The notes beneath the pieces are model-generated. The model was not told the origin of the DNA. It ran no database searches and saw only the letters and a list, made by a program, of their open reading frames with translations. Shown one piece after another: positions 9,180 to 62,504 of a DNA stretch of 62,504 nt (its first letter is position 1; each line of letters begins with the position of its first letter). Origin of the DNA: Gammaproteobacteria bacterium (lineage in GTDB: Bacteria; Pseudomonadota; Gammaproteobacteria; Natronospirales; JAJUFS01); NCBI GenBank assembly GCA_029263725.1, contig JAJUFS010000003.1, positions 1-62,504 of the forward strand, written 5' to 3'. A program made the translations under genes and the position numbers.

Positions 9180-9586
9180 TCGCCGTCCTCCCGGTGCTGG
9201 AAGTGCAGCGAGGCGGAGTTCACGCAGAAGCGCAGACCGCCCTCGTCGGCGGGGCCATCGGGAAACACATGCCCGAGATGCGCATCGCAGGCCGCGCAGA
9301 GAATTTCCACGCGCCGCATGCCGTGGGAGAGGTCCTCGCGGGCATTGACGTGCCCGGGATCGATGGGCCGGGTGAAGCTGGGCCAGCCTGAGCCAGAGTC
9401 GTACTTGGCCTCGGAGTCGAAAAGTTCCGTGCCGCAGCAGGCACAGCGGTAGACACCCGGCTCATGGTGATCGTGATAGCGACCGGTGAAGGCCCGCTCG
9501 GTGCCGCCCTTGCGGGCCACGGCGAAGGTTTCCGGGTCGAGCAGCTCGCGCCACTCTTCTTCGGATTTTTCCACGCGCTTGATCAT
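9176..9586 (-). CDS. msrB: Peptide-methionine (R)-S-oxide reductase
   Basis: Two CxxC pairs (CACCG, CAACD), GWPSF, and the RFC catalytic-Cys motif. Start at MIKRVEK. ATGA-type overlap with the downstream gene. Confidence 0.9.
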   Translation of the reverse strand: MIKRVEKSEEEWRELLDPETFAVARKGGTERAFTGRYHDHHEPGVYRCACCGTELFDSEAKYDSGSGWPSFTRPIDPGHVNAREDLSHGMRRVEILCAACDAHLGHVFPDGPADEGGLRFCVNSASLHFQHREDGE

Positions 9587-11098: not shown

Positions 11099-11386
11099 TT
11101 CCAATTCTCCTGAAATACCGTGCCTCTGTTGGATGCATGAGCGGCAGCAGTGGTTTATGCGCCCGCAGCGCTTGAAATCGAAAACTTGGATGTTAAAGTA
11201 GGCGCCGCACGAAAAGGCAAACCCGTCCGAAAGGCGGGCACGCAAAGTCACCGGTCTAAGGGGTGCAAGCCCTATGACAGCGGGATTACCGAAGCAGCCC
11301 CCTCATGCTGGCGCTTTCCCCCTTTGGCCAGCGCGTTTCGGTTCCCCCGCCCGTTGTCAGAAGCTTGTACCCCTTTTTATTTCCCG

Positions 11387-51947: not shown

Positions 51948-51975
51948 AGGATCGCCGCGCACGCATCCATGCTCT

Positions 51976-52003
51976 TGTCAGCTGACAGCAACTGACATTT
52001 TTT
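51976..52003 (+). terminator. Possible rho-independent terminator
   Basis: TGTCAG-(10 nt)-CTGACA followed by TTTTTT. It also contains the 12-nt perfect palindrome TGTCAGCTGACA. Confidence 0.4.
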
Positions 52004-52417
52004 GCGCCTTGACTTTCACCGGTGCGCTGATTAACTTCCGTCGCGCTTTCACAGCTTCATCATACGAGGTCGTCATGTCGGAGATTGCTCGTTAGCAGGA
52101 TGATTCGCACGCCTTGAAGGCGCGCGCTCCTTTCGAACGACTCGTCGCATCGCAGCCAGCGATGTTCGTAACCACCTCTCACAGGACAGGTGCCGACATG
52201 AAGATTTCCCAGCCCCAGACCACTCTGATCCGAACAGGTTTCGCGTCCGCGCGCATCCGTCATCGCGACGGCGTCGCTCGCGTCGCCTAGCTCGCGCACA
52301 GCGCGCTCAAACCTGACTTTCCGGACAACGACACTCGCCAACAGGGCGCGGCGCAGCCCCGTGGACACGTGCCCGTGTCACGGCCGCCGCCACCGTTGGG
52401 CGATGCGGGGTTTCACG

Positions 52418-52666
52418 ATGAAGAAAGACAAGATCAAGGAACGCATCGCGTTCGTGAACGACGCCATGGCCCTGGAACGCAAGGCCGGTTCGTCGCTGCC
52501 CTCCCGGCAGAACTGGAAGCTCTGCCTCATGGCAGTGGCGCTGGATGAATACGCCGAGGAAAGCGATCTGCAGCTGCTCACCCGCAGCATGGATGAAAAG
52601 ATGCGGGACTCGCTGCTGGCACTGTGGAAGAGCCACGAGCACGCCAGCAACGAGGAAGAAGGATGA
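52418..52666 (+). CDS. Small hypothetical protein (82 aa)
   Basis: ORF only. Helical and acidic at the C-terminus. Confidence 0.4.
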   Translation: MKKDKIKERIAFVNDAMALERKAGSSLPSRQNWKLCLMAVALDEYAEESDLQLLTRSMDEKMRDSLLALWKSHEHASNEEEG

Positions 52667-52706
52667 GCAGGGAGACGGGAGGCTCCGCTCGGGCGGAGCT
52701 TCCCCG

Positions 52707-53681
52707 CTACCGCGATGCGCGCCGGTAGCGCAGCAGTGCGCGCACTCCCCAGCCGAACAAGCCGAGCACGACGAGAACCAGGGCCGCGAGCGCCATCAGG
52801 TTGCGCACGGGGTTGGTGATCACGTAGTTCTCGTGCGAGGCGTAAAAGCCATTGAATGAGGCAAGGTGCCCGGGAAGGGCCAGTACGTCTTCCTTGGCGA
52901 GTTCCAGGCGGCGCTCGTTCGGATGATGACTCGCGCCGCGGGGATACAGGCCGCCTCCGGCATCGAGCTCCACGTGCCCGCCCAGCACATGCGTGATCTC
53001 GCGATCTCTCACGAAGTTCGCCAGCCGCTCGGCGCTGGCGCGGTACGCCGCCGCGTCATCGACCATGAGCCGGCCCGGCAGCAGGAAATCTCCCGTGAAC
53101 AGCAGCCCGGTCTCGCGATCATGGAAGACGAGATGCGCCGGATGATGCCCAGGCGCGAGCAGCACATCGATCACGCGGTTGCCAAGGTCGATCTCCCCCT
53201 CGCCTTCCGGCCAGCGCTCGAAACCGAAATACACCGCCAGCGCATCGAGCTCCACCGGCGGCACTTCCACGCCAGGCAGTGACTCGAACTGCACATCCCC
53301 GCGGCGGTGATCGCGGTGGCCGTGCGTGTGCGCAACCAGCAAGGGCATGGGCTTGTCGTCGATCACCGGCAACAGGCCCATCACCGTTTCCGCCAGGGGC
53401 ATTGCAGCTGCGTCTTCCACATCCCCGCTATCGATGAGCAGCGCGCGCTCCTTGCCGACCAGCAGGTACAGGAAGTTCGCCTCGAAACTCGCGCACGGGT
53501 CCTGCCTAAGGATGTAGGTATCCGCGTTGTAGCCATGCACCTGCAAGGGCGGTGGCGCGGCAGCCGCGCAATCAGGCGCGCCGCTCGTCCATTCGACGTT
53601 CAGCGAGCCAGTGGAAGCGGCAGTCGCAGAAGCAGCCACCATGAGCGGCACGACGGCGAGGAGGCTCGGGAATTTCTTCAT
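52707..53681 (-). CDS. Exported MBL-fold metallo-hydrolase with C-terminal TM anchor
   Basis: Signal peptide, HTHGHRDH motif, and a later GH...H. The C-terminus NLMALAALVLVVLGLFGWGV-RALLRYRR is a TM helix plus basic tail. Confidence 0.8.
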   Translation of the reverse strand: MKKFPSLLAVVPLMVAASATAASTGSLNVEWTSGAPDCAAAAPPPLQVHGYNADTYILRQDPCASFEANFLYLLVGKERALLIDSGDVEDAAAMPLAETVMGLLPVIDDKPMPLLVAHTHGHRDHRRGDVQFESLPGVEVPPVELDALAVYFGFERWPEGEGEIDLGNRVIDVLLAPGHHPAHLVFHDRETGLLFTGDFLLPGRLMVDDAAAYRASAERLANFVRDREITHVLGGHVELDAGGGLYPRGASHHPNERRLELAKEDVLALPGHLASFNGFYASHENYVITNPVRNLMALAALVLVVLGLFGWGVRALLRYRRASR

Positions 53682-53707
53682 GCGACCGCACTTCCTTTCT
53701 TATTGTT

Positions 53708-54511
53708 TTACAGGACCAGTTCGGTCAACGGTTCTTCCTGCGGAGCCGCCGCTTCCTTCTTAGGCCGCTTTCTCAGCGTACGATCAGAAGCTCTTTTCAC
53801 TTGTGCCAGCGCCTTTTTCGCCGCCTCGCCTTCGACGAGGTCACGCTTCAGCACCTCTGTACGGATAAGCTCTTCCACCTCTTCAGTTTCGATGCGCATA
53901 TCCGGGTTCATTCGCCGGATCTCCCGGCGGACGAGGCTTGTCACGGCATCGGATTGCAGGATAGCCGCGACCGTGAACTTGTTCAGCACGCTGGCGCGAT
54001 TCTGATACTCACGGATCAGATTTTTCAGCAGGCCCTCCCGGGACAGCAGGAGCAGGAGGCTCTTGTGCTCCGTGGAGCGAGCGTTCATTTCGAGAATGTT
54101 GAACTTGCAAAGCAGGCTGTAGGAAACCGGCTTCTCGAACTTGAGCGCATAGACCTCCCAGTCGATGCCGTTCGTGAGCACCACCCATTGAATTCCCTCG
54201 CTCACGCCGTAACTGACCGCCTGGCGAAGATGGTTGTCCTTCAGGTTGAGGCCGACGGCCTTCACCTCGATCAGGAGCTTGACCTTGTCGTCGAACTTGA
54301 TGGCAAGATCGCAAAAGGTCTTCCTGATCGCATATTCTCCCGTCACCTCCGCGTACTTGTCGAAGCCGAAAAGCTCGGCAAGCATGTCGGTCACGATGGT
54401 GACCGTATCCGCCTCGTTGACGTCCCTGCGCCTGGCATCCTCGAGAACCTTCTGGAACACCGGAAGGGCCTTGGCAAAGCGCTGTTCCGCCTTCTTTGGA
54501 ATCTTGGACAT
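53708..54511 (-). CDS. Standalone HsdR_N-type PD-(D/E)xK nuclease-fold protein with helical C-terminal domain
   Basis: EADTVTIVTDMLAELFGF, CDLAIKF-(x9)-LLIEVK (D...ExK) and QAVSYG...WVVLTNGIDWEVY match the type I restriction HsdR N-terminal domain pattern. No helicase or methylase gene is adjacent. Confidence 0.7.
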   Translation of the reverse strand: MSKIPKKAEQRFAKALPVFQKVLEDARRRDVNEADTVTIVTDMLAELFGFDKYAEVTGEYAIRKTFCDLAIKFDDKVKLLIEVKAVGLNLKDNHLRQAVSYGVSEGIQWVVLTNGIDWEVYALKFEKPVSYSLLCKFNILEMNARSTEHKSLLLLLSREGLLKNLIREYQNRASVLNKFTVAAILQSDAVTSLVRREIRRMNPDMRIETEEVEELIRTEVLKRDLVEGEAAKKALAQVKRASDRTLRKRPKKEAAAPQEEPLTELVL

Positions 54512-54693
54512 GACTGCTCCCCTGGCATGACTGCCTGATCGAACACTTGCTCCAGCATGGAAGGCATCAAACGGCGCCGCCTTGAAAAGCGGTCTATTGG
54601 CAGGACTCAACCCTCAAGGAAGTATAGAAGAGGAAAGGGAAAGCTCAATGATGGAGAGCGCCTCGGTGGCTGAGACTCATGCGGGCTAGTGGA

Positions 54694-55188
54694 TCAATCG
54701 CCATTCTGCACGGAACGGGCGAAGTCCGGGCGGATGACGAAAACATGCAGCAGTGCGCCGTCCGGCTCACTTTGCACCCTAGTGAACCTGGCATCCTGCG
54801 CGGTAAGCGCGTTACCAACGGTGTCGGCCACCGCGTCCGGATTGGCTAGGTAAGCCGCGTCCATTACCAGCTCACACAGCGAGCGCGTACACTCCAGGGA
54901 CTTCAGCTCCGTCAGAACCACGGGCTCGATGAGCTCATCGTCCTTCGCCTTGCGCAACGCCTCCAGCACCACGCTTGTGAAGGCGTGATCGTTCCCCAGC
55001 GCTTCGCGCTCCTCCCGGAGAAACGACTGCATCATCCCGATCACGCTTCTACCCGCTCTTGGCGGCACCCGCTGCAGCGTTGCGGTCTGCTCCTGGCCCA
55101 GGCGTTCCTTGAATTCTTCAGGCATGTCAGCGCCGACCAGGACCGGCATCGAACAGACGAGCAACGGAAAAAAACGGCGCATCAGCAT
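54694..55188 (-). CDS. Exported hypothetical protein, family P1 (copy a)
   Basis: Signal peptide MLMRRFFPLLVCSMPVLVGA. C-terminal LKSLECTRSLCELVMD ... FVIRPDF is shared with 60637-61323. Confidence 0.55.
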   Translation of the reverse strand: MLMRRFFPLLVCSMPVLVGADMPEEFKERLGQEQTATLQRVPPRAGRSVIGMMQSFLREEREALGNDHAFTSVVLEALRKAKDDELIEPVVLTELKSLECTRSLCELVMDAAYLANPDAVADTVGNALTAQDARFTRVQSEPDGALLHVFVIRPDFARSVQNGD

Positions 55189-55337
55189 GTGTTTTCTGGG
55201 CTCCCCCGGGATTTTCAGCGCTGCGCGACACATGACAACATTGGCGGCCTGCATGGTCAACGGCTGAAAGGATCAGCGGCCGTCGGAACAGGGGCGCTGG
55301 ATTCCTATGCTGAACACATGGACACAAGGAGGCACGG

Positions 55338-55922
55338 ATGCCGTTTCTCGCCGTTCTTATTGCCGCGAACCTGGCCACCCATGACCCGGCCCAGGCGGCA
55401 CCTGTGTACATCACCAACGAGCGGGGCAGCGCGATTCTCTTCGCACCGCCGCCCGGCAGGACCGCGGAATATGTAAGGAACAGGCACGCGCTTCTTGAGG
55501 ATCTCGCGAATCGACAGCCGGCGGATGTCATCGAGGCGCAGGTGTCGCTGGCCGGCCTTCTTCCAGTCACAGAGCTGCCGGAGTTCGTGAAAGGCATCGA
55601 TCTGACCTTCCTCGTTCTCAACCTTGGCGGCGACCATCCTGGCGGGTTCCACTTTCGAGAGGGAGAGTCGTTGAATGAGGGAGTGTCCCGCTTGCTGGGA
55701 TACCACGACGATTTTCTGGAGTTCCGCGAGGAACCGCCGGCAATCCCGCAGGTGTTTGGCTTCCGTGTTCTTTCGACTGCCGAAGACCTCGTTGCCTTGC
55801 GGGACAATGAGCACGTGGGGTTGGTGGACCCTTTGTGGGACGAGTTTTCGGATGCCGCTGGAACAGACGTAAGGAAACTCGCGGCCCCGCTTCCTCTCCG
55901 TGATCAGGACGTCAATCGCTGA
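55338..55922 (+). CDS. Exported hypothetical protein, family P2 (copy a)
   Basis: Signal peptide. The blocks ITNERGSAILFAPPPG, YVRNRHALL and LVDPLWDEFSDAAGTDVRKLAAPLP are shared with 57797-58516. Confidence 0.6.
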   Translation: MPFLAVLIAANLATHDPAQAAPVYITNERGSAILFAPPPGRTAEYVRNRHALLEDLANRQPADVIEAQVSLAGLLPVTELPEFVKGIDLTFLVLNLGGDHPGGFHFREGESLNEGVSRLLGYHDDFLEFREEPPAIPQVFGFRVLSTAEDLVALRDNEHVGLVDPLWDEFSDAAGTDVRKLAAPLPLRDQDVNR

Positions 55923-55941
55923 CCTACAGCCGGTTCCATTT

Positions 55942-56667
55942 CTAGGGTGCGCGCTTGTATTGGGCCATCTGTTGCGCGATATCAGCTGAGAGCGCATGCA
56001 GATACTCGACGGCATTCTTCCCAATCTGCGCCGCATTTTCCTCGATGGCCTTTCGCGCTTGCGTCAGGTCCTGATCTCCGTCGTTCGAGTAGTCGATGCA
56101 GGTTTTGTATCGGGCCAGAACAAGTTGATCGATGATAGTCTCCACGCCGACATCACGTTGTCCGAGACCGCTCTCCATCAAGGCGATGGATTCTCGACGG
56201 GACTCGTTCGCGATTTCCTCTAGCAGCACGGCGCGTATGCGGCTGTATCGCGCACGCCAAGCGTCGTCCTTGTTGCGCAGGGCATAGATCCTGTCAGCCA
56301 GCCACAAGCGGGTTACGAGGTCGATCTCGTCAGAAAGCGTGGGTTTAATCGCGGTCAGGAACTCTGAGATCTTCGCTTTCTCGGCATCGGTGATGTCAGC
56401 AAAGTCATCACCAAAGGAGACATAGCCGCTTGTTGGGCAGTACCAAAGCCATCCAAACACAGCATGCGGCCAGAAAACGCCGTCGTACTTCGTCGGCCAG
56501 TTATAGATGTAACTGCCCCAGCTCGCCGGCGTTGGCACGTCGCACTCTGCGCCGGAAATCGGATCCACCACGGTGGTCTGATGCCAGGTCGTTGCTGAAG
56601 CCGTTGCGCCGGCGAACGCCAGAATCGCCAGACCGGTAACCAGGATGAATAGCCGCATGGTCTGCAT
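55942..56667 (-). CDS. Exported hypothetical protein (P3), Trp-rich N-terminal part and helical C-terminal part
   Basis: Signal peptide MQTMRLFILVTGLAILAFAGATASA. No recognisable family. Confidence 0.55.
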   Translation of the reverse strand: MQTMRLFILVTGLAILAFAGATASATTWHQTTVVDPISGAECDVPTPASWGSYIYNWPTKYDGVFWPHAVFGWLWYCPTSGYVSFGDDFADITDAEKAKISEFLTAIKPTLSDEIDLVTRLWLADRIYALRNKDDAWRARYSRIRAVLLEEIANESRRESIALMESGLGQRDVGVETIIDQLVLARYKTCIDYSNDGDQDLTQARKAIEENAAQIGKNAVEYLHALSADIAQQMAQYKRAP

Positions 56668-56950
56668 TCGCTCCCCCTCTTCTGTCATCGTGAGGCCCCG
56701 CCTGCGGCGCGTTGGCGCGGCATCGGCAGAGAATCGGAAACATCGCGGGCGCGAGACATCGCACCTCAGATGCAGCGTACGTCTCACAAAGCTTTTGCCG
56801 AGCGCTGTTTTCGGTGATTATTTAACACACGTAAGGTTGAAGGCCAGTGACCCGACGCCTTGGATACTGAACAACGAACGATAGGGGCTCAGGAAACGTC
56901 ACCGCTACAAAAGTGTGTCCCTGCGGCTTTCCTCTCCAGGAACGAGCAAG

Positions 56951-57514
56951 ATGAATGTGAAGCAACTCGCCTGGCTGGTCACCTCCATCATCCTTGCTGG
57001 CTGTTCCTACGTCGGCGTCGTCGCCACGGCTGATCCGCTCAAGATGCTTCATCAAGGTGAATCGATGCAGCAGGCGGGGCGTCACATTCCCGCGGAACAG
57101 CTGGGATTGAGAGCGCTCGAAAGGGGTGTCGAGCTTGGTGACAAACGAGCTCAGGCCAACGCGCATCGATACCTTGGCAACTTCTACAAAAGCAGGCTCT
57201 ACTTCGAGCGCGCGGACTGGTTCAGGAGCGTGGACCGGTTTGATCCAAGCTACGAATTGTCGAAGTCGCACTTCCAGCAGGCTGCTGCACTCTGGGAAGA
57301 GATCGGCGACGACTGGGGCGTTGCCGCAGAGTATTTCAACCTCGGAAACGTGGCCTCGCTCCAGGAGAACAGCGACGGCGCCTGCGATCTCTATAGCCGC
57401 TCGCTGGCGGCGTATGGCACGGCAACCTTCCAGGGCACGATCCATCCCTGGAGCCCCGGCCTATCCAGACTTCCCTTCAATGGTGCGAGCCTTCACCGAG
57501 CACGAAGGTTGTGA
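56951..57514 (+). CDS. TPR-like lipoprotein (P4); C-terminal ~20 aa probably altered by a +1 C frameshift
   Basis: Lipobox LAGC and TPR-like helices (AHRYLGNFYKS, AEYFNLGNVA). Relative to the duplicate at 61879, the run at 57454-57457 has 4 C rather than 3. Confidence 0.6.
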   Translation: MNVKQLAWLVTSIILAGCSYVGVVATADPLKMLHQGESMQQAGRHIPAEQLGLRALERGVELGDKRAQANAHRYLGNFYKSRLYFERADWFRSVDRFDPSYELSKSHFQQAAALWEEIGDDWGVAAEYFNLGNVASLQENSDGACDLYSRSLAAYGTATFQGTIHPWSPGLSRLPFNGASLHRARRL

Positions 57515-57693
57515 GGACTTCGACTAGCCACCCGACGGCTTGAGCCCGCTCGCCGCATTGACGAACCGCTGGCCGAGATCCGCCAGCCTTCCCGCAAGCT
57601 CCGCCTTCGCCGCTTCCTGGCCCATCCGGTTCATGGACAGCGGCGAGCTCAACGACTCCAACCGCTGCTCCAACGCAGCCAGCTCCTCCTTCG
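57420..57693. repeat. Direct repeat copy 1 (274 nt), about 97 percent identical to 61879-62151
   Basis: Aligned by eye. The differences are one C indel and a few substitutions until the last ~20 nt. Confidence 0.9.
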
Positions 57694-57700
57694 TTACTCT
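57524..57700 (-). pseudogene. 3' remnant (about 58 codons) of a paralog of the 61982-62350 gene
   Basis: Minus-strand translation gives RVTKEELAALEQRLESLSSPLSMNRMGQEAAKAELAGRLADLGQRFVNAASGLKPSGG. An in-frame TGA lies immediately upstream and there is no start codon. Confidence 0.7.
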
Positions 57701-57796
57701 TCAGGCCCAGAAGAGTTCGAAACCCGGGATAAGAGCGTTTCCTCGTCGGCGAAATCATTCCATACAGGCGTCAGTATTTCATCAAAGGAGATCGAA

Positions 57797-58516
57797 ATGC
57801 TGATCGCTACATTCCTTATAGGAGCTGCTCTGGCAGCCGAACCATCCGCTTTGAATGCCTCTCCCTCAAAAATTACAAATCCACGCGGTACTGCCATCCT
57901 ATTTACTCCTCCGAAGGGGCAAGTAGAGGCGTACATCAAGAACCGGCACGCCCTTATTGGCCACTTATCTCGCGAATACCCTCGCCAGAGGTTCGAAGCC
58001 CAGGTCTCTTTCTGGAGATACCTCCCGGCTTTTCAGCTTCCGCAGTTATTGGAGGAGATGGAAGTACGGGTTATATCGCTAGACTTCGGATGGGACGGAC
58101 AAGGCGGAGGGTTCGCCGTCGAAGGCAACGAGCCATTGGAGGAGTCTCTGGAAACACTTCATAGATATCACGGAGAGTTCCTCGGCCATCTCCATGAAAC
58201 GGTCTCTTTGATTGAGGAAGAGACCAGCCGCCCGGATAAACGGCCGGGCGACGAGCAGCGCCTGGCTGAGCATCTTGATCATATCCACTCACTTTCTGCC
58301 GCGTACCAGGAACATGGGGTCCTCCTGGTAGGAATGAAGGTTACTGGCAGGCCCGAAGACCTGGTAGCGCTTATCAACAAAGAACCCGTGCGGCTTGTTG
58401 ATCCTTTGTGGGACGAGTTCTCGGATGCGTCAGGGGCCGAAGTGAAAAAGCTTTCTGCCCCTATTCCTCCGGAACAAGGACCAATCTCTGCAAGGGAAGG
58501 AGCCCCCGATGACTAA
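57797..58516 (+). CDS. Exported hypothetical protein, family P2 (copy b)
   Basis: AAAGGAG RBS and a signal peptide. Shares the ITNPRGTAILFTPPKG, YIKNRHALI and LVDPLWDEFSDASGAEVKKLSAPIP blocks with copy a and carries an internal ~45-aa insertion. Confidence 0.65.
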   Translation: MLIATFLIGAALAAEPSALNASPSKITNPRGTAILFTPPKGQVEAYIKNRHALIGHLSREYPRQRFEAQVSFWRYLPAFQLPQLLEEMEVRVISLDFGWDGQGGGFAVEGNEPLEESLETLHRYHGEFLGHLHETVSLIEEETSRPDKRPGDEQRLAEHLDHIHSLSAAYQEHGVLLVGMKVTGRPEDLVALINKEPVRLVDPLWDEFSDASGAEVKKLSAPIPPEQGPISAREGAPDD

Positions 58517-58567
58517 CAGACCTGACAGCGCGCTGGGAACGGTTTTTACTTGCAAGTGCCTTCAGAG

Positions 58568-58607
58568 TCAGGTCTTGCAACATAGCATGCTGCAATTCAA
58601 GATCTGA
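58568..58607. repeat. Palindromic element, copy 1 (40 nt)
   Basis: TCAGGTCTTGCA-ACATAGCATGCTGCAA-TTCAAGATCTGA, with 10 of 12 arm positions complementary. Confidence 0.85.
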
Positions 58608-60232
58608 CCCCAAGGCCGGCGCTCGTTCTCAACCTGACTAAATCTACGCCGAGCGCCAAGAAGAGACATCAAGAACGTCAGCAGCCAGGCGAGCGCGCCA
58701 CCACCGGAACCACCACCTGCCGCATCGGCCTGCTCCGCATTCCCGCTGGCGTCACCCGTTCCGCCGGTATCGTCATCGCCGTCGCCAGCACCCGCATCAT
58801 CAGAGCCTTCGTCCGCGCCGTCACTGGCAGCGTCGTTGTCCGCTTCCGTAACACCAGGATCGTTTCCTCCATCCCCGGGGTTCGTGTCGTCGTCTTCGTT
58901 CGCGTCATCCGAGCCATTACTATCGTCACCCTCGTTCTCGTCCTCGTCGCCGGCGGGATCGTCGAAATTTTCATCGTTCTCAAGGCCTGCCTCGGCTATC
59001 AACGCCGACGTTTCGTACCACAGCACACGCGCTGGAGCGCCTTCCGAGAAACTCATCGCCAGCGCCTGGGCGGAGATCGCGGAGTCCCAATAGACGTACG
59101 ACAAGTTTCCTTCCACATGCTGTGCAAATTGCGTCCATTCGCCAGCTTCGTCTTTCAAGAACGCGTAGATCGCACCGGTTTCGTGATTCTCGCCCGCAAG
59201 CACCAAGCCATCCTCGATATCGACCGTCACGCCGAAATTGGCGTGTGCATTGCCATCGTTCGGCGCATTCAAGCGCGCACGCTGCACCCAAGCATCGGGA
59301 TCGCGCTCGAAAAAGTAAGCAACGCCTTCGGCGCGCGGTCGGTCGCCGATGTTCTCGCCCGGCGCACCCAGTACCAGCACGTCGCCTTCAATCGCCACAG
59401 TCGCCGCCCCGCCAAGTTCGACCGTATCGGCAAGTAGCCAACCGGAAGCGCCGTACTCGTAGATATAGCCGTTGCCGTTTGCCGTGAACGCAATACGGTC
59501 GTCATCAATGGCGCTGTCGATCACATCTAGGCCGCTGCCATCTTCGCCCATGAAGGTGCGCGTCCACGTCCAGTTGCCCGTGCCATCCCGTTCGTAAAGA
59601 TACGCACGTCGAACGTCGGCAGCGGAGGATGTCACCAGTATGCGGTCACCACTGACAGCCACTTCTGTGCCGAAGTAGCCTTCCTCGAGCGGTGTTGGCG
59701 CATGGAGAACGGCGCTGTGCCGCCAATCGCCATCGGATCTATCGCGCTCGAAAACATGCACAAGGCCGGCCTCATAGAGGCCGTCGACACCAGCCCGCCT
59801 GTCCGCGACCGCAATGACGTTACCATCGATACTTACCGGCTCGCCGAACCTGCCGGTTTCGTACGCGGGTGGCCTCAGTGTCGCGAGATGATCAAGATCG
59901 CCATCCGCGAGCCGGAACACATAGACTGCCGGTTCGTCGGACGTAACGGCGAGCAGGCTTCCATCGAGATCAATCGCGCGACCGAAATGCATGTCGTCGT
60001 CCTGGTTGTTTGCATCGCTACCGGGACGATAAAGTGTGTTGAGCTCCGCCGCGGTCGCGGATGCACTGGCGAAGGTGGCTATTGCGGTGACCACCACGAG
60101 CATGACAAGAAAGAAGACGTGCGCCACGTCACGACAACCGATCGAGACGTGAAAGCTCCTTTGCACCTCGTCAAGTTCGTGAATTGCCGCCGCAGTGGGA
60201 ATGATCGAAGAAGAACTGGAATGAATGCGCAT
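58568..60232 (-). CDS. FG-GAP-like beta-propeller protein with acidic low-complexity linker and GlyGly-CTERM-type tail
   Basis: Repeated (F/Y)FG...V.(I/L)DG...(L/I)(A/V)V blades (HFGRAIDLDGSLLAV, RFGEPVSIDGNVIAV, YFGTEVAVSGDRILV, NFGVTVDIEDGLVLA). A D/E/N/G-rich tract of about 100 aa. Then GGGSGGG-ALAWLLTFLMSLLGA-RRR, followed by 24 extra codons. Start is uncertain (ATG at 60232, or GTG at 60127 just before the signal-like helix). Confidence 0.7.
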   Translation of the reverse strand: MRIHSSSSSIIPTAAAIHELDEVQRSFHVSIGCRDVAHVFFLVMLVVVTAIATFASASATAAELNTLYRPGSDANNQDDDMHFGRAIDLDGSLLAVTSDEPAVYVFRLADGDLDHLATLRPPAYETGRFGEPVSIDGNVIAVADRRAGVDGLYEAGLVHVFERDRSDGDWRHSAVLHAPTPLEEGYFGTEVAVSGDRILVTSSAADVRRAYLYERDGTGNWTWTRTFMGEDGSGLDVIDSAIDDDRIAFTANGNGYIYEYGASGWLLADTVELGGAATVAIEGDVLVLGAPGENIGDRPRAEGVAYFFERDPDAWVQRARLNAPNDGNAHANFGVTVDIEDGLVLAGENHETGAIYAFLKDEAGEWTQFAQHVEGNLSYVYWDSAISAQALAMSFSEGAPARVLWYETSALIAEAGLENDENFDDPAGDEDENEGDDSNGSDDANEDDDTNPGDGGNDPGVTEADNDAASDGADEGSDDAGAGDGDDDTGGTGDASGNAEQADAAGGGSGGGALAWLLTFLMSLLGARRRFSQVENERRPWGQILNCSMLCCKT

Positions 60233-60365
60233 CTGCCATCCTCCCCTGTGTAACATCAGGCCGCGCAGTCGAAAACCCGGAAAGGAAAGCACGTCGCGCC
60301 GCTGGTGCCGTGGCTTGATCTTGAAATCGACGCTAGGGACGCGGCAAACACGCTACAAGACGTGA

Positions 60366-60545
60366 ATGCCCGTGAAGAAATACACCTATCCGAGACAAGC
60401 GTTCCCTCGCACACCCAGCTCTAGGAATGAGTTCGGGAAGAGACTTAAGGAAATTCGCGAGGAACGGCCCTACAGGCACGAAGGATTGGCAGAGGCGGCG
60501 GAATGCATGTGTGACGCTATCCGTGCCTATATGGTCAGGTCCTGA
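60366..60545 (+). pseudogene. 59-codon remnant resembling the N-terminus of an XRE-family HTH protein, ending inside palindrome copy 2
   Basis: EFGKRLKEIREER...GLAEAA resembles the HTH_3 helix 1-2 consensus, but the recognition helix is missing. The stop codon (60543-60545) lies in the left arm of the palindrome. Confidence 0.4.
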
Positions 60546-60574
60546 AACATAACATGCTGCAATTCAAGACCTGA
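60535..60574. repeat. Palindromic element, copy 2 (40 nt)
   Basis: TCAGGTCCTGAA-ACATAACATGCTGCAA-TTCAAGACCTGA, with 11 of 12 arm positions complementary. Confidence 0.85.
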
Positions 60575-60636
60575 GCCCGAATCGCCGCTCGTCAGGCCGC
60601 CAAGACCGCCAGACTGCAGTCGAAGTATCGGGCGTA

Positions 60637-61323
60637 TCACTCGAAAAAATCTCGTCTGATAAGGTACCAACTCCATAACCTGGGGTCGTTAGGATTGGCG
60701 GCGTTCAAGGTCATTACGTAGTCGTCGTCAGCCGCTCGTATCTCTCGACTAAGCACTGAAATGGTGACAGCGAGATCGGCGACCATCTCCTTGTCGATCA
60801 GAACTTCGCATAAAGTCTCTGAGCATCGCAGGCCGCGTATAGCGTGCGCTATCGCCGGATCAACCATGCTGCCCTCGACGATTCGCTCTATATGGCGAAC
60901 GAGCGCAACCGGCAGTTCAGCATCTTGGCTCCTTTGCTCGATGTCCCTGCTTATTCTTTCTTCGAGCTGAAGCATGGTCTCTCGCGGCCGATTACCAACC
61001 TGGAGGCCAAGTTGCTCCGCCGTGAGACGGGGCACATCGAGCGCAGGATAATCAGCGACACCATCAGAAGAGCGTCTTCCTATCCCGCTTACGCTGTCGC
61101 CATTTTTCCGCGTTACAGCTGCCCCAGAAGGAGTAAAACTATACGGTTGCTCTTCCCGTACAGCGACGGAATTAAGCTCTCGTCGAGCCGGCGGGTTCGC
61201 AGTTCCAACCTCTTCTGCCCCCCTCAATTCAGGTCCAGCATCCCGAAACGAGAACGACTTTAGAAGAGTAAGAGTCAGAATGCCTGCGAGCAGGACAACG
61301 GGGACTAGCAGCTTGGCTTTCAC
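60637..61323 (-). CDS. Exported hypothetical protein, family P1 (copy b)
   Basis: A GTG start gives a GTGA overlap with the stop of the upstream 115-aa gene. N-terminal TM/signal KLLVPVVLLAGILTLTLL. C-terminal IRGLRCSETLCEVLID ... YLIRRDFF is homologous to 54694-55188. Confidence 0.55.
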   Translation of the reverse strand: MKAKLLVPVVLLAGILTLTLLKSFSFRDAGPELRGAEEVGTANPPARRELNSVAVREEQPYSFTPSGAAVTRKNGDSVSGIGRRSSDGVADYPALDVPRLTAEQLGLQVGNRPRETMLQLEERISRDIEQRSQDAELPVALVRHIERIVEGSMVDPAIAHAIRGLRCSETLCEVLIDKEMVADLAVTISVLSREIRAADDDYVMTLNAANPNDPRLWSWYLIRRDFFE

Positions 61324-61667
61324 TGTTGAGACTGAGGTGGGCAAACGTCGATATTGTTGCAGGCATTCCCGCCGCCGAATCCGAAAGTACTTTGATGCCA
61401 CGTCCCGAAGCTTGTGGGCGCCAGAGAACCGCCACCTATATATGCGCCAGTACTGGAGTTGAACACGCTGTAATCAACCACATAGCCGCCACTATTTATC
61501 CAAGCGACGACGGTTTCTGTTCCACTACGTCCTTCTCGCCAGTTAGTGTAGGTCCCGTAGCCATAACTTTCGCCCGTCGAACGGTAGGCGTCCCATCCGG
61601 CGATCACTATGGCTGAGAATCCAAGAAGGGTTATCCAGAGCAAGATTCGAGAAGATACCGCTTTCAT
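61320..61667 (-). CDS. Small exported Gly/Tyr/Thr-rich protein (115 aa), candidate secreted toxin or bacteriocin-like peptide
   Basis: Signal/TM MKAVSSRILLWITLLGFSAIVIAGW. The mature ~90 aa are rich in G, Y, T, S and W, with a C-terminal GGGNACNNIDVCPP Cys pair. Confidence 0.55.
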   Translation of the reverse strand: MKAVSSRILLWITLLGFSAIVIAGWDAYRSTGESYGYGTYTNWREGRSGTETVVAWINSGGYVVDYSVFNSSTGAYIGGGSLAPTSFGTWHQSTFGFGGGNACNNIDVCPPQSQQ

Positions 61668-61829
61668 CCACCGCCCCCCCTGTCATAAGCTTTTGTAGAA
61701 ATATAGCCCATATTCCGGGTATTTCCACTCTTCACTGCTTATCCGTCTACTCGCCTTCCGCATATCGCAAGGCCGCTCAGGGGGGCTCTGACCTTCGCGT
61801 CATGTCCAGCTCAATGGAGCCTTCGGGGG

Positions 61830-61867
61830 TCAGGTTTTGAAACAACATGCTGCAATTCAAGACCTGA
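61830..61867. repeat. Palindromic element, copy 3 (38 nt)
   Basis: TCAGGTTTTGAA-ACAACATGCTGCAA-TTCAAGACCTGA, with 11 of 12 arm positions complementary. Shares the 3' flank CCCCAAG with copy 1. Confidence 0.85.
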
Positions 61868-61878
61868 CCCCAAGTCCC

Positions 61879-61985
61879 CGGCAACCTTCCAGGGCACGAT
61901 CCATCCCTGGAGCCCGGCCTATCCAGACTTCCCTTCAATGGTGCGAGCCTTCGCCGAGCACGAAGGTTGTGAGGAATTCGACTAG
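61879..61985 (+). pseudogene. 3' fragment (about 34 codons) of a P4-type lipoprotein gene
   Basis: Reads TFQGTIHPWSPAYPDFPSMVRAFAEHEGCEEFD-stop in one frame. There is no upstream coding sequence because the fragment abuts the palindrome. Confidence 0.6.
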
Positions 61986-62151
61986 CCACCCGACGGCTTG
62001 AGCCCGCTCGCCGCATTGACGAACCGCTGGCCGAGATCCGCCAGCCTTCCCGCAAGCTCCACCTTCGCCGCTTCCTGGCCCATCCGGTTCATGGACAGCG
62101 GCGAGCTCAACGACTCCAACCGCTGCTCCAACCCCGCCAGCGCCTCCTTCG
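61879..62151. repeat. Direct repeat copy 2 (273 nt)
   Basis: See 57420-57693. It begins 11 nt after palindrome copy 3. Confidence 0.9.
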
Positions 62152-62350
62152 AACCCTGTGGATACCGCTCCACCCAGGACCGTAACAGGTCCAGGTACTC
62201 TCGCGTGGTGTTCAGGGTTTCCGCGAAATCCGGCCCCGGGTCGCCGACTCGCAGCACGCGCATCGCGTCCGAAATCAGGAGAACGGGGATCCAGAGTTGA
62301 TCGACGTAGGCGTAGTGGGCTGGGAGCTGGCTCTTCCTTGAACCTGTCAT
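61982..62350 (-). CDS. Hypothetical helical protein (122 aa)
   Basis: ATG preceded by an AGGAG RBS. Its stop overlaps the plus-strand TAG within a shared CTAG. No recognisable family. Confidence 0.6.
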   Translation of the reverse strand: MTGSRKSQLPAHYAYVDQLWIPVLLISDAMRVLRVGDPGPDFAETLNTTREYLDLLRSWVERYPQGSKEALAGLEQRLESLSSPLSMNRMGQEAAKVELAGRLADLGQRFVNAASGLKPSGG

Positions 62351-62364
62351 TTGCAACTCCTAAT

Positions 62365-62504
62365 TGACCTTTCCCCCGCTTTTCGGTCCATTCGCGATGT
62401 GGGGTTTCCCTTTAGACTAGCGCCTTAGGGAGGTCCCGATGAAGCGCAAACGATTCACAGAAGAACAGATCATCAATGTCCTGAAGGAGTACGAGGCCGG
62501 CGCC
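62365..62504 (+). mobile_element. Left end of an IS3-family (IS407-group) insertion sequence, continuing beyond the window
   Basis: A terminal TGACCTTTCCCCC resembles IS407-group inverted repeats (TGACCTGCCCCC). An orfA start follows 74 nt downstream. Confidence 0.75.
62439..62504 (+). CDS. IS3-family transposase OrfA, N-terminal 22 codons (3' end lies outside the window)
   Basis: GGGAGG RBS. MKRKRFTEEQIINVLKEYEAGA matches the IS3/IS407 OrfA N-terminal HTH consensus. Confidence 0.8.
   Translation, partial: MKRKRFTEEQIINVLKEYEAGA

What the first reader, a model, noticed from the sequence alone, without database searches (positions are those of the whole stretch)
51948..62504. Mosaic, AT-richer accessory island encoding almost only exported proteins of unknown family
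After the M50-like peptidase gene the sequence changes character. It is visibly less GC-rich than the preceding 52 kb, especially from about 53.7 kb onward. Coding density drops, and almost nothing matches a family I recognise. Nearly every product has a signal peptide, lipobox or membrane anchor: the MBL hydrolase, P1a, P2a, P3, P4, P2b, the FG-GAP/GlyGly-CTERM protein, the 115-aa peptide and P1b. Two protein families occur twice. There are three gene remnants, three copies of a palindromic element, a 273-bp direct repeat, and an IS3/IS407 element at the right edge. This pattern of paralogous exported modules with orphan fragments resembles polymorphic toxin/immunity or surface-variation loci, but none of the proteins matches a known toxin, immunity or secretion family by eye. 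I consider it the best candidate in the window for an undescribed system.
Basis: partly seen in the sequence, partly recalled or inferred. Interest (0 to 1): 0.78.

Follow-up and report, generated by a model that had tools for sequence, protein, structure and literature searches.

The report
Decaying acquired island of envelope genes
The AT-richer block at the end of this window is a real, horizontally acquired and partly decayed patchwork of rare envelope-protein genes and mobile-element leftovers in an uncultured gammaproteobacterium, and nothing in it supports a toxin/immunity or otherwise new "system".

Summary
Nearly all the observations hold. GC drops from 0.656 to 0.579, with tetranucleotide z = 6-8 and GC3 falling from 0.80-0.87 to 0.53-0.76. 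Also confirmed are two paralogous families, three gene remnants, three hairpin copies, a 273-bp direct repeat and an IS3-family end.

The boundaries are wrong. The composition step is at 53.69 kb, so the MBL hydrolase lies in host-like DNA. The IS does not bound the island. It is a polymorphic insertion, and island-type DNA continues at least 2.1 kb further in sister contigs.

I found no toxin, immunity, secretion or defence family. P2 is a rare branch of the Pfam Sigma_reg_C superfamily, and its confident fold has no PDB match. The first island gene is a phage/plasmid-type HsdR-N-like nuclease. P3 has two relatives, and the P1b search found none. P2 and P3 relatives elsewhere have unrelated neighbours.

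The hairpin belongs to a repeat family found in unrelated high-GC bacteria, usually just after stop codons. Exported proteins are not significantly enriched (8/10 vs 28/51, p = 0.18).

Many genes are frameshifted, truncated or polymorphic. The best reading is an ordinary mosaic flexible islet under relaxed selection. Interest is low, with two minor new items: the P2 fold and the hairpin family.

The parts
51948..53681 (.). Inside the finding's coordinates but NOT part of the island. It holds a non-coding spacer, an 87-aa ORF (52403-52666 +) and a signal-peptide MBL-fold hydrolase with a C-terminal TM segment (52707-53681 -). Composition is host-like.
   Evidence: GC 0.638. GC3 is 0.81 for the 87-aa ORF and 0.80 for the MBL gene. 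Lactamase_B matches at E = 3.5e-11.
53682..53707 (.). Left junction of the island. GC steps sharply from 0.65 to 0.57 within the 26-bp spacer between the MBL start and the stop of the HsdR_N-like gene.
   Evidence: 400-bp GC profile.
53708..54511 (-). Stand-alone HsdR-N-terminal-like (PD-(D/E)XK-type) nuclease-like protein, 267 aa, cytoplasmic, of a kind carried by mobile elements.
   Evidence: Pfam HSDR_N_2 at E = 2.8e-7. Full-length match to phrog_17239 at E = 1e-85. 37% identical to a 'restriction endonuclease' of Thermus phage Riverbug. 44% identical to genes on Leptospira weilii plasmids.
54694..55254 (-). P1a, 186 aa. It has a signal-peptide-like N-terminus (MLMRRFFPLLVCSMPVLVG). Its C-terminal ~75-aa CxxxxC domain is shared with P1b.
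   Evidence: No family hit.
55338..55922 (+). P2a, 194 aa. A shortened paralog of P2b that lacks most of the central helical hairpin (36 alignment columns are gaps, P2b residues ~130-176). An 11-bp deletion in its signal-peptide region occurs in some strains.
55942..56688 (-). P3, 241-248 aa, exported. It has a conserved N-terminal TTW...DPISG...GSYIYxWP...FGDDFA domain and a helical C-terminus. A 7%-divergent allele with a W97* stop exists in part of the population.
   Evidence: Only two distant relatives among 5.8e9 proteins. Allele described.
56951..57514 (+). P4, a TPR lipoprotein with an LAGC lipobox. In this window it carries a +1 frameshift at about 57454, relative to contig L006 and to repeat copy 2.
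   Evidence: TPR_12 at E = 1.2e-9. One-base difference at 57454.
57420..57693 (.). Direct repeat copy 1 (GC 0.65). It consists of the 3' end of P4 plus the convergent 3' remnant of the 122-aa gene (57527-57694, -).
57797..58516 (+). P2b, 239 aa, with a signal peptide. It is a full-length member of a rare periplasmic family in the Sigma_reg_C superfamily.
   Evidence: 63 relatives among 1.84e9 representative proteins. 15 of 56 relatives hit PF13791. P0042 scores 33.1 bits against a cutoff of 25. hhalign gives 99.9%. AF2 model pLDDT 89, pTM 0.84. No PDB or BFVD fold match.
58556..58611 (.). Hairpin element copy 1, between the convergent P2b and FG-GAP genes. In some strains a 13-bp tandem duplication at its right edge changes the FG-GAP product from 554 to 594 aa.
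58568..60232 (-). FG-GAP repeat protein of 554 aa (beta-propeller by family type, inferred). It has an N-terminal anchor, an acidic linker and a GG+TM+RRR C-terminal sorting-type tag, followed by a 24-aa extension read from hairpin 1.
   Evidence: FG-GAP_2 at E = 2.5e-12. Tag at borderline scores.
60366..60545 (+). Truncated XRE-type HTH gene fragment that ends inside hairpin 2.
   Evidence: HTH_31 at E = 0.023. 33% identity over 33 aa to the intact XRE gene of L042.
60523..60578 (.). Hairpin element copy 2.
60637..61323 (-). P1b, 228 aa, with an N-terminal membrane anchor. Its GTG start overlaps the stop of the 115-aa ORF.
   Evidence: No relative found. Gene calls. Similarity to P1a.
61320..61667 (-). 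115-aa ORF with an N-terminal TM segment and a G/S/T/Y-rich body. Its coding status is uncertain. Its length varies between strains (53, 115, 119 (cut at a contig end) and 130 aa).
   Evidence: GC1/2/3 are 0.48/0.55/0.53. Gene calls. No family hit.
61816..61871 (.). Hairpin element copy 3, the best preserved: a 16-bp stem with a 14-nt loop. It abuts repeat copy 2.
   Evidence: Folding energy -17.8 kcal/mol, z = -3.4. Arm analysis.
61879..62151 (.). Direct repeat copy 2. It consists of a P4-like 3' remnant (61879-61977, +) and the 3' part of the intact 122-aa gene.
61982..62350 (-). 122-aa cytoplasmic protein (124 aa from TTG at 62356) with host-like GC3 of 0.81. In sister contigs it is paired divergently with an XRE repressor. 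The population carries three copies: intact, 3' remnant and frameshifted.
   Evidence: No family hit.
62366..62504 (+). Left end of an IS3-family element (TGACCT... terminus, orfA start at 62440), cut off by the window end. It is inserted about 10-15 bp upstream of the 122-aa gene. It is absent at this site in contigs L041-L044.
   Evidence: (ISRle4-like IS3 transposase).

Best explanation
This is an ordinary flexible-genome islet in an uncultured gammaproteobacterium. It covers at least 8.7 kb in the window (53.69-62.36 kb) and at least about 11 kb with its continuation in sister contigs.

**Origin (inferred).** The DNA was acquired horizontally in more than one step and is now decaying. The outer part (segment A, GC 0.584) carries a phage/plasmid-type HsdR-N-like nuclease gene, P1a, P2a, P3 and the TPR lipoprotein P4. 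A still AT-richer 4.2-kb segment X (GC 0.564) carries P2b, the FG-GAP protein, P1b and the 115-aa ORF. Segment X lies between two 273-bp direct repeats, each made of the convergent 3' ends of a [P4 -> <- 122-aa gene] module. This is the footprint expected from either of two events: homologous (Campbell-type) insertion of a circle carrying a copy of that module, or duplication followed by deletion. An IS3-family element later landed just upstream of the 122-aa gene in this strain.

**The hairpins (partly shown).** They are degenerate copies of a dispersed intergenic hairpin repeat with 26-nt arms. They lie just downstream of stop codons. I infer a REP-like or terminator-like role.

**The proteins (inferred).** They do not form one machine. 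They are a collection of periplasmic, lipoprotein and membrane-anchored envelope proteins from very rare families. The two P2 proteins are stand-alone periplasmic copies of the extracytoplasmic domain that Pfam calls Sigma_reg_C. They most likely act as ligand- or protein-binding envelope modules.

**State of the genes (shown).** There are frameshifts, truncations, in-frame losses and strain-specific stop codons. I take this as a sign that much of the region is under relaxed selection.
For: **Composition**
- The island differs strongly from the upstream 52 kb.

**Mobile-element signatures**
- IS3-family end.
- phrog_17239 / HSDR_N_2 gene with relatives in a Thermus phage and on Leptospira and Arthrobacter plasmids.
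- XRE fragment in the window, and an intact XRE gene just beyond it.

**Mosaic structure**
- The 273-bp repeats flank segment X, and both repeats are GC-rich patches.
- Metagenome contigs break exactly at the repeats.

**Decay and polymorphism**
- P4 carries a +1 frameshift relative to L006 and to repeat copy 2.
- P3 has a W97* allele that is 7% divergent.
- P2a has an 11-bp deletion in some strains and lacks the helical hairpin.
- There are three remnants.
- A 13-bp duplication changes the FG-GAP C-terminus.
- A third, frameshifted copy of the 122-aa gene lies beyond the window.
- The IS is absent in L041-L044.

**No system**
- No toxin, immunity, secretion or defence family was found.
- No island family co-occurs next to P2 or P3 relatives elsewhere.

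**P2 identity**
-.

**Hairpin family**
- It occurs in eight unrelated contigs, mostly just downstream of stop codons. One copy lies next to a gene I read by eye as katG.
Against: - No integrase, tRNA or att site was found. The right boundary lies outside the window, so the mode of acquisition is inferred rather than shown.
- Every contig that carries the flanking M50 gene also carries the island as far as the contig reaches. All come from one population (99.2-100% identity), so presence/absence among relatives is untested.
- Neither genome scan found a related locus in 185,579 species genomes. The M50 scan found nothing, and the P2 pattern scan found only one partial P2 hit in a Thermodesulfovibrionia MAG.
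- Two families occurring twice, plus the near-universal export signals, could still reflect a shared function that these tools cannot see.
- SNP density in the island is no higher than in the flank, apart from the P3 patch.
- dN/dS of the P3 allele is not clearly neutral: 18 nonsynonymous against 14 synonymous codon changes.
Confidence: 0.7

Rival explanations
1. Remnant of a specific integrated mobile element (a prophage, ICE/IME or integrated plasmid). The envelope genes would be its cargo or 'moron' genes.
For: The first island gene matches phrog_17239 over its full length and has phage- and plasmid-borne relatives. XRE repressor genes and fragments are present. The left junction is sharp.
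Against: There are no integrase, capsid, tail, replication, relaxase or conjugation genes in 53.7-62.5 kb or in the 2.1 kb beyond. None of the other nine products scanned against PHROGs (P1a, P1b, P2b, P3, 115-aa, 122-aa and three L042 ORFs) gave an informative match apart from the XRE repressor, and P2a, P4 and FG-GAP were not scanned. Neither the gene relatives nor the hairpin occur in IMG/VR contigs. No tRNA or att repeat was found.
Confidence: 0.15
2. Orphan immunity-gene array or polymorphic toxin/immunity locus. In this reading the exported paralogs protect the envelope against periplasm-acting effectors.
For: The products are small exported proteins or lipoproteins of rare families. There are paralogous pairs and gene fragments in a mobile, AT-richer context. 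A TPR lipoprotein is present.
Against: No toxin domain, Rhs/CdiA/MAFB-type carrier, or T6SS/T7SS/CDI gene was found, and no known immunity family. P2 belongs to the Sigma_reg_C superfamily. P2 relatives elsewhere are single genes next to lipid A acyltransferase, epimerase or GGDEF genes. The P2 fold matches no effector/immunity structure above noise.
Confidence: 0.07
3. Surface or envelope variation locus. The repeats, the hairpins and the 13-bp duplication would serve to switch or diversify exposed proteins.
For: A 13-bp tandem duplication toggles the FG-GAP C-terminus between 554 and 594 aa across samples. A divergent P3 allele exists. An 11-bp indel lies in the P2a signal peptide. The 273-bp direct repeats could excise segment X.
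Against: The changes produce a stop codon, a frameshift or a tag extension rather than alternative functional variants. There is no invertase, recombinase, DGR reverse transcriptase or silent-cassette archive. No contig lacking segment X was recovered. SNP density is otherwise as in the flank.
Confidence: 0.05
4. Envelope-stress signalling module. The P2 proteins (Sigma_reg_C-like) would work with the adjacent M50 site-2-type protease in regulated proteolysis.
For: The P2 family is homologous to a domain named for sigma-factor regulators. Some long-form relatives give sub-threshold FecR_C and STN hits, which I place by eye in their N-terminal domain. An M50 peptidase gene lies 1.8 kb upstream of the island.
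Against: There is no sigma factor gene. There is also no anti-sigma N-terminal domain or TM segment, because P2a and P2b have only signal peptides. The M50 gene lies in host-composition DNA, separated from the island by the MBL gene. The function of Sigma_reg_C is itself uncharacterised, and no paper was found.
Confidence: 0.04
5. Hairpin-delimited cassette array. The conserved hairpin would be a recombination site, analogous to attC, that captures and shuffles genes.
For: Hairpins sit at junctions with truncated genes: HTH fragment | hairpin 2, hairpin 3 | P4 remnant, and the FG-GAP ORF running into hairpin 1. There are at least five copies in about 11 kb of island against none in 53 kb upstream. 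Identical 26-nt arms occur in unrelated bacteria.
Against: There is no integrase or other recombinase. No R''/R' (GTTRRRY) core sites are visible in the hairpin sequence, read by eye. The genes lie on both strands. In other organisms the hairpin lies singly in ordinary intergenic spacers, beside a gene I read by eye as katG and beside what look like kinase genes. That is typical of REP or terminator-like repeats.
Confidence: 0.04

Closest known systems
Genomic islets / flexible genomic islands of Gram-negative bacteria (compositionally deviant, IS-associated, ORFan-rich)
   Same: Lower GC and deviant tetranucleotide and codon usage. An IS element, phage/plasmid-type genes, pseudogenes and remnants, strain-level polymorphism, and mostly lineage-restricted genes.
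   Different: No integrase, tRNA or att boundaries are visible. Presence/absence among relatives could not be shown. The right end lies outside the window.
Pfam Sigma_reg_C (PF13791), the C-terminal extracytoplasmic domain of putative sigma-factor regulators
   Same: The core of the P2 family (P2b residues ~42-204) aligns with relatives that pass the PF13791 threshold (33.1 bits against a cutoff of 25). The two sub-alignments match at 99.9% hhalign probability.
   Different: P2a and P2b themselves do not hit the Pfam model at E <= 0.1. They carry a cleavable-type signal peptide instead of an N-terminal regulator domain plus TM segment. P2a has lost most of the helical hairpin. No sigma factor gene is adjacent.
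REP/BIME-type intergenic palindromic repeats (e.g. E. coli REP) and hairpin terminators
   Same: Imperfect palindromes of 45-100 nt that lie in intergenic spacers, usually just after stop codons and in several cases between convergent genes. They are multi-copy and have conserved arms with a variable loop.
   Different: The 26-nt arm sequence GGGGTCAGGTCTTGAATTGCAGCATG matches no Rfam family, plasmid or paper in the collections searched. It is shared at 100% identity by unrelated contigs. Within this window it is confined to the island. No RAYT transposase is known for it.
Orphan immunity arrays / polymorphic toxin-immunity loci (CDI, Rhs, T6SS effector-immunity islands)
   Same: A cluster of small exported proteins or lipoproteins with paralogs and gene fragments in a mobile context.
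   Different: No toxin, carrier, secretion or known immunity family was found. The relatives do not lie in such loci elsewhere.
IS3 family insertion sequences (ISRle4-like; IS407-group terminus by recollection)
   Same: The terminus begins TGACCT. orfA starts MKRKRFTEEQIINVLKEYEAGA and is 83-86% identical at DNA level to annotated IS3-family transposase genes.
   Different: Only 139 bp lie in the window. Subgroup, completeness and target duplication cannot be assessed.

Membership tests
Horizontally acquired genomic island | Base composition and oligonucleotide usage differ from the host chromosome | tested here: met
   GC 0.579 vs 0.656. GC z = -5 to -6, tetranucleotide z = 6.3-7.9. GC3 0.53-0.76 vs 0.80-0.87.
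Horizontally acquired genomic island | Mobility genes (integrase, transposase) or phage/plasmid-type genes | tested here: met
   IS3-family end. phrog_17239 / HsdR_N-like gene with phage and plasmid relatives. No integrase was found.
Horizontally acquired genomic island | Insertion at a tRNA/tmRNA gene with flanking att direct repeats | tested here: not met
   No tRNA or tmRNA in the window. The only long direct repeat flanks the inner 4.2-kb segment, not the whole island. The right end lies outside the window.
Horizontally acquired genomic island | Present in some close relatives and absent in others | not testable with these tools
   All contigs carrying the flank are from the same population (99.2-100% identity). 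No relative of the flank (M50 gene) was found in the GTDB species genomes. A separate scan with a P2 peptide pattern found only one partial P2 relative.
Polymorphic toxin / immunity locus | A toxin domain fused to a trafficking or carrier region (Rhs, CdiA, PAAR, LXG, MAFB etc.) | tested here: not met
   No such Pfam or NCBIfam hit in any ORF of 50.8-62.5 kb.
Polymorphic toxin / immunity locus | Products belong to known immunity families or co-occur with toxins in other genomes | tested here: not met
   No family hits. Neighbours of P2 and P3 relatives are unrelated genes, although those contigs are short.
Polymorphic toxin / immunity locus | A linked secretion system (T5/T6/T7SS) | tested here: inconclusive
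   None in the island, and none among the ten largest upstream ORFs scanned. The rest of the genome is unknown.
Integron cassette array | attC sites with R''/L''-L'/R' cores (RYYYAAC...GTTRRRY) and an intI gene | tested here: not met
   Reading the hairpin sequence by eye (no pattern search was run), I see no GTTRRRY core. No integrase was found. The genes lie on both strands.
Pfam Sigma_reg_C (PF13791), for P2a/P2b | Score at or above the gathering threshold of the Pfam model | tested here: not met
   P2a and P2b give no hit at E <= 0.1. 15 of 56 relatives hit at E <= 0.01, and at least one is above threshold (P0042, 33.1 bits against 25).
Pfam Sigma_reg_C (PF13791), for P2a/P2b | Homology to bona fide members shown by profile methods | tested here: met
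   The P2 profile finds P0042 at E = 8e-8. hhalign of the close P2 subfamily against the distant subfamily led by P0042 gives 99.9%, E = 8.7e-37 over 159 columns.
Pfam Sigma_reg_C (PF13791), for P2a/P2b | Architecture of a membrane-spanning regulator (N-terminal regulator domain plus TM segment) next to a sigma factor gene | tested here: not met
   Only a signal peptide precedes the domain. There is no sigma factor gene in the island.
REP-like intergenic hairpin repeats | Imperfect palindrome, multi-copy, lying in intergenic spacers near the 3' ends of genes | tested here: met
REP-like intergenic hairpin repeats | Genome-wide dispersal in the host, and association with a RAYT-type transposase | not testable with these tools
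   Only 62.5 kb of this genome is available, and there are no copies in the 53 kb outside the island.
GlyGly-CTERM / MYXO-CTERM-type sorting signal (FG-GAP protein) | Match to the sorting-domain HMM at the curated cutoff | tested here: inconclusive
   GlyGly_CTERM scores 15.2-15.8 bits against a cutoff of 15.5. GC_trans_RRR scores 16.8-18.4 against 15.85. MYXO-CTERM scores 13.6 against 20.
GlyGly-CTERM / MYXO-CTERM-type sorting signal (FG-GAP protein) | The tag lies at the extreme C-terminus, and the cognate rhombosortase is present | tested here: not met
   The ORF continues 24 aa past RRR in this window, and 64 aa in strains with the 13-bp duplication. I did not search for a rhombosortase.
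IS3 family insertion sequence | TG... terminal inverted repeat and an orfA with an N-terminal HTH, similar to known IS3 transposases | tested here: met
   Full length, orfB and the target duplication cannot be tested, because the element is cut off by the window end.

The most novel reading that the evidence does not exclude
The island's repeated content is a previously undescribed envelope module. It would be built around a new periplasmic fold, the P2 / Sigma_reg_C-like family. That family has 63 representatives among 1.84 billion clusters, a confident model and no solved structural relative. P2 would act together with P1 and P3 partners. The conserved 26-nt-arm hairpin, shared by unrelated bacteria, would act as the recombination or mobility site that moves such genes between lineages.
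Probability: 0.07. Interest if true: 0.6.

Novelty: new member of a known kind. Interest (0 to 1): 0.25.

Why it matters
The main value is as a corrected annotation. The block should be recorded as an acquired, decaying islet whose true limits are 53.69 kb and a point beyond the window. It should not be flagged as a candidate new system.

Two by-products may be useful.
- The P2 family links about 60 orphan periplasmic proteins to Sigma_reg_C, a Pfam family on which my paper search found nothing and for which I found no solved structure. The family now has a confident predicted fold, so it is a reasonable target for structure determination and for asking what these 'sigma regulator' ectodomains bind.
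- The hairpin with arms GGGGTCAGGTCTTGAATTGCAGCATG is a conserved intergenic repeat shared by unrelated high-GC environmental bacteria. It matches no Rfam family. It could be catalogued as a REP-like family or used as a marker in metagenome binning.

Neither item changes current understanding.

Tried and rejected
- **Synteny in relatives.** A scan of GTDB species genomes with the M50 flank found nothing. A P2 profile scan gave one partial hit in a Thermodesulfovibrionia MAG. Two earlier attempts failed because the alignment was too divergent. All exact-protein look-ups returned the same population.
- **Homolog searches.** Word-index searches for P2b and P1b found only the queries themselves. 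The P3 search found two relatives.
- **PDB sequence searches.** P2b, P3, P1b, the P2 and P3 profiles, the 122-aa protein and the FG-GAP protein gave nothing significant. The NepR hits at E = 0.07-0.1 are noise.
- **Fold searches.** The shallow P2b model (pLDDT 60) gave only noise against the PDB. The deep model (pLDDT 89) also gave no match against PDB or BFVD.
- **Defence and phage libraries.** PADLOC gave only sub-threshold hits. PHROGs was informative only for the HsdR_N-like gene and the XRE gene.
- **Hairpin.** It matches no Rfam family, and the miRNA hits are spurious. It is absent from plasmids and from IMG/VR, and no paper cites the sequence. I rejected a MITE derived from the neighbouring IS3 element, because the hairpin reads GGTCA...TGACC, the opposite polarity to TGACC...GGTCA IS ends. 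I rejected attC, because I see no core sites by eye.
- **Viral contigs.** Relatives of HsdR_N, P2 and P3 were not found.
- **Sample accessions.** A literature search to identify the habitat found nothing relevant.
- **P0025.** This 5404-aa hit to the P2 profile looks by eye like a repetitive, eukaryote-type protein (FN3-like; no family scan was run). I treat the hit as spurious, and it was not included in the alignment.
- **DGR-type mutagenesis of P3.** Rejected. The substitutions are of all types and there is no reverse transcriptase.

Full report

Largely yes. GC is 0.656 over 1-51947 and 0.579 over 53682-62363. I compared 4-kb windows against the 24 windows upstream of the M50 gene. Island windows have GC z-scores of -5 to -6 and tetranucleotide-distance z-scores of 6.3-7.9. 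Third-position GC falls from 0.80-0.87 in the upstream genes sampled (0.77 in one of them) to 0.53-0.76 in island genes.

The step is sharp and lies at about 53.69 kb. That is the 26-bp spacer between the start of the MBL-hydrolase gene and the stop of the next gene. The finding placed it at 51.95 kb. The 87-aa ORF and the MBL gene (GC3 0.81 and 0.80) therefore belong compositionally to the host.

By the same crude ORF method, coding coverage is 0.81 in the island and 0.91 upstream.

The repeated features are all present:
- P2a and P2b are clear paralogs (38% identity, E = 7e-41).
- P1a and P1b share only a C-terminal domain of about 74 aa with a CxxxxC motif, at 24% identity. The match exceeds all 2000 shuffles.
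- The 273-bp direct repeat (57420-57693 and 61879-62151) is 97-98% identical.
- The palindromic element occurs three times in the island and nowhere else in the window, where 0 are expected by chance.
- The three remnants are real.
- The last 139 bp are the left end of an IS3-family element.

**2. Source and population**

A MurB protein in the same 90%-identity cluster as the window's is annotated as coming from a Gammaproteobacteria MAG. The window has no tRNA gene.

The flanking M50 protein and the island proteins occur in dozens of metagenome assemblies. All these contigs are 99.2-100% identical to the window and have the same gene order. They sample one population and not a set of relatives.

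No relative of the flank (M50 gene) was found in 185,579 GTDB species genomes. A second scan with a P2 peptide pattern found one partial P2 relative in a Thermodesulfovibrionia MAG.

**3. What the genes are**

- **HsdR-N-like protein (53708-54511, -).** This first island gene is a cytoplasmic, stand-alone nuclease-like protein (Pfam HSDR_N_2). It matches phrog_17239 over its full length at E = 1e-85. Its relatives lie in a Thermus phage, where the gene is annotated as a restriction endonuclease, and on Leptospira and Arthrobacter plasmids. It is a mobile-element gene.
- **P4.** A TPR lipoprotein.
- **FG-GAP protein.** A 554-aa FG-GAP repeat protein (a beta-propeller by family type, which is my inference). 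It has an acidic linker and a GG+TM+RRR C-terminal tag that scores at the borderline of both the GlyGly-CTERM and GC_trans_RRR models. Its reading frame runs 24 aa past the tag into hairpin 1.
- **P1a, P1b, P3, the 115-aa and the 122-aa products.** None matches Pfam, NCBIfam, PADLOC, PHROGs or PDB sequences. P3 has two distant relatives among 5.8 billion clustered proteins, sharing a conserved N-terminal domain. P1b has none.

**4. The P2 family**

A word-index search found nothing. An exhaustive profile search found 63 relatives among 1.84 billion representatives.

Fifteen of 56 relatives hit Pfam Sigma_reg_C (PF13791), and three hit FecR_C. One relative, P0042, passes the curated threshold with 33.1 bits against a cutoff of 25. 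The close P2 subfamily aligns with the distant subfamily that contains P0042 at 99.9% hhalign probability.

P2 is therefore a divergent, stand-alone periplasmic branch of the Sigma_reg_C superfamily. It has a signal peptide only, with no regulator N-domain and no TM segment. Some longer relatives carry an extra N-terminal domain of about 130 aa. A few of them give sub-threshold FecR_C or STN hits, and I place those hits in that domain by eye.

With the 56-sequence alignment, AlphaFold gives a confident model (pLDDT 89, pTM 0.84). It is an alpha/beta core with a long helical hairpin. Foldseek finds no match in the PDB or BFVD. P2a lacks most of the helical hairpin.

I found no paper on Sigma_reg_C, so 'binding or sensing ectodomain' is an inference from the Pfam name and the architecture.

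**5. No evidence for a system**

Seven contigs carry P2 or P3 relatives from elsewhere. Their neighbours are lipid A acyltransferases, an epimerase, a GGDEF protein, what looks by eye like a transporter fragment, and small ORFs with no family hit. No relative of any other island protein lies beside them. These contigs are short, so the test is weak.

There is no toxin domain, carrier, secretion component or known immunity or defence family in the island.

Export signals are not distinctive. Eight of ten island products have them, but so do about 55% of crude upstream ORFs. The upstream region is full of lipoproteins and of NHL, LVIVD and PKD repeat proteins. Fisher p is 0.18.

**6. Mosaic structure and decay**

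Each 273-bp repeat is a GC-rich (0.65) patch. It is made of the convergent 3' ends of a [P4 -> <- 122-aa gene] module. Copy 1 keeps the whole of P4 and a remnant of the 122-aa gene. Copy 2 keeps a remnant of P4 and the whole 122-aa gene.

Between the copies lies a 4.2-kb segment X with the lowest GC (0.564). It carries P2b, the FG-GAP gene, the HTH fragment, P1b and the 115-aa ORF. I infer that X arose either by homologous insertion of a circle carrying a copy of the module or by duplication followed by deletion. Metagenome assemblies break exactly at these repeats.

Damage and polymorphism are frequent:
- P4 has a +1 frameshift in this window, relative both to contig L006 and to repeat copy 2.
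- One subpopulation carries a P3 allele that is 7% divergent over about 530 bp, has a W97* stop and lies within flanks that are at most 0.3% divergent.
- The same strains have an 11-bp deletion in the P2a signal peptide.
- A 13-bp tandem duplication at hairpin 1 changes the FG-GAP product from 554 to 594 aa.
- The 115-aa ORF varies in length between strains.

**7. The right edge**

Contigs L041-L044 come partly from the same samples. They match the window at 100% up to position 62363 and then continue without the IS.

The continuation has GC 0.57. It holds a divergent intact XRE repressor gene, a Zn-ribbon membrane protein, two further hairpin copies, a third and frameshifted copy of the 122-aa gene (89.5% identical) and a small lipoprotein.

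The IS is therefore a strain-specific insertion about 10-15 bp upstream of the 122-aa gene. The island extends beyond the window.

**8. The palindromic element**

The three window copies are degenerate versions of a hairpin with 26-nt arms, GGGGTCAGGTCTTGAATTGCAGCATG and its reverse complement. The best copy has a 16-bp stem, -17.8 kcal/mol and z = -3.4.

An exact-pattern scan of JGI metagenomes found the same arms in eight unrelated high-GC contigs with variable loops of about 0-50 nt. One copy has a double change matched in both arms.

In those contigs the hairpin lies in ordinary intergenic spacers, usually within about 50 bp of a stop codon. Both L039 copies and the L036 copy lie between convergent genes. 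The L036 copy sits beside a gene I read by eye as katG, and the L037 copy sits between what look like sensor-kinase-type genes.

The hairpin matches no Rfam family and is absent from plasmids, IMG/VR and the searchable literature. I read it as a REP-like or terminator-like repeat. It is not an attC site, because I see no core sites by eye, there is no integrase and the genes lie on both strands. It is not a MITE of the neighbouring IS, because its polarity is the opposite.

Its confinement to the island within this window remains unexplained. It would fit either a donor lineage rich in this repeat or preferential insertion into dispensable DNA.

**9. Verdict**

The block is a real, horizontally acquired, mosaic and partly decayed flexible islet. 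It carries mobile-element leftovers and envelope proteins of very rare families.

The toxin/immunity and surface-variation readings are not supported, and nothing indicates a coherent new system. I put the ordinary-islet reading at about 0.7. Most of the remainder goes to 'remnant of a specific integrated element'.

Novelty is 'new member of a known kind' and interest is low at 0.25. Two modest by-products are the Sigma_reg_C-like P2 fold and the conserved hairpin family.

Noticed in passing
window 11206-11293 (+): A c-di-GMP-I riboswitch aptamer (RF01051) at 80.1 bits against a gathering score of 35, E = 3.8e-14. I did not identify the downstream gene it controls.
   Followed up: no
L032-L039 (JGI metagenome contigs); e.g. 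L036:1597-1660, L039:1562-1657 and 9225-9320: A hairpin repeat with identical 26-nt arms (GGGGTCAGGTCTTGAATTGCAGCATG and its reverse complement) occurs in eight otherwise unrelated high-GC contigs. It usually lies just after stop codons. It matches no Rfam family, is absent from plasmids and IMG/VR, and no paper cites the sequence.
   Followed up: partly
L041:1-2090 and L042:1-2170 (continuation to the right of window 62363): The island continues beyond the window without the IS. The continuation holds an intact XRE repressor divergent from the 122-aa gene, a Zn-ribbon membrane protein, two more hairpin copies, a frameshifted third copy of the 122-aa gene (89.5% identical), a small lipoprotein and a 64-bp local repeat.
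   Followed up: partly
window 56110-56636 (P3), compared with L010, L011 and L013: A patch 7% divergent over about 530 bp lies within flanks at most 0.3% divergent. It has 18 nonsynonymous and 14 synonymous codon changes, including W97*. This looks like a recombined allele from a more distant lineage that is a pseudogene in that subpopulation.
   Followed up: yes
window 58606 (right edge of hairpin 1), compared with L001, L020, L021, L028 and L029: A 13-bp tandem duplication (GACCCCAAGGCCG) is polymorphic across samples. It lengthens the FG-GAP ORF from 554 to 594 aa.
   Followed up: yes
window 1-50000: The 50 kb upstream of the island is itself rich in exported proteins and lipoproteins with NHL, LVIVD, K319L-like PKD and DUF5916 domains. 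The envelope-protein bias is therefore a property of the whole region and not only of the island.
   Followed up: partly
P0009, P0017, P0022, P0027 (long-form P2 relatives, 350-360 aa): These relatives have a signal peptide and then an extra N-terminal domain of about 130 aa ahead of the Sigma_reg_C-like domain. A few long-form relatives give sub-threshold FecR_C or STN hits, which I place in that domain by eye. This hints at a link to TonB-transducer or secretin-type interactions.
   Followed up: partly
window 50826-51947 (+): The M50 peptidase is atypical. It has an HExxH membrane domain followed by a C-terminal region of about 170 aa that looks soluble and helical by eye. It gives only weak hits to RseP and to the daptide protease. 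It lies in host-composition DNA, and variants down to 96% identity occur in the population.
   Followed up: no
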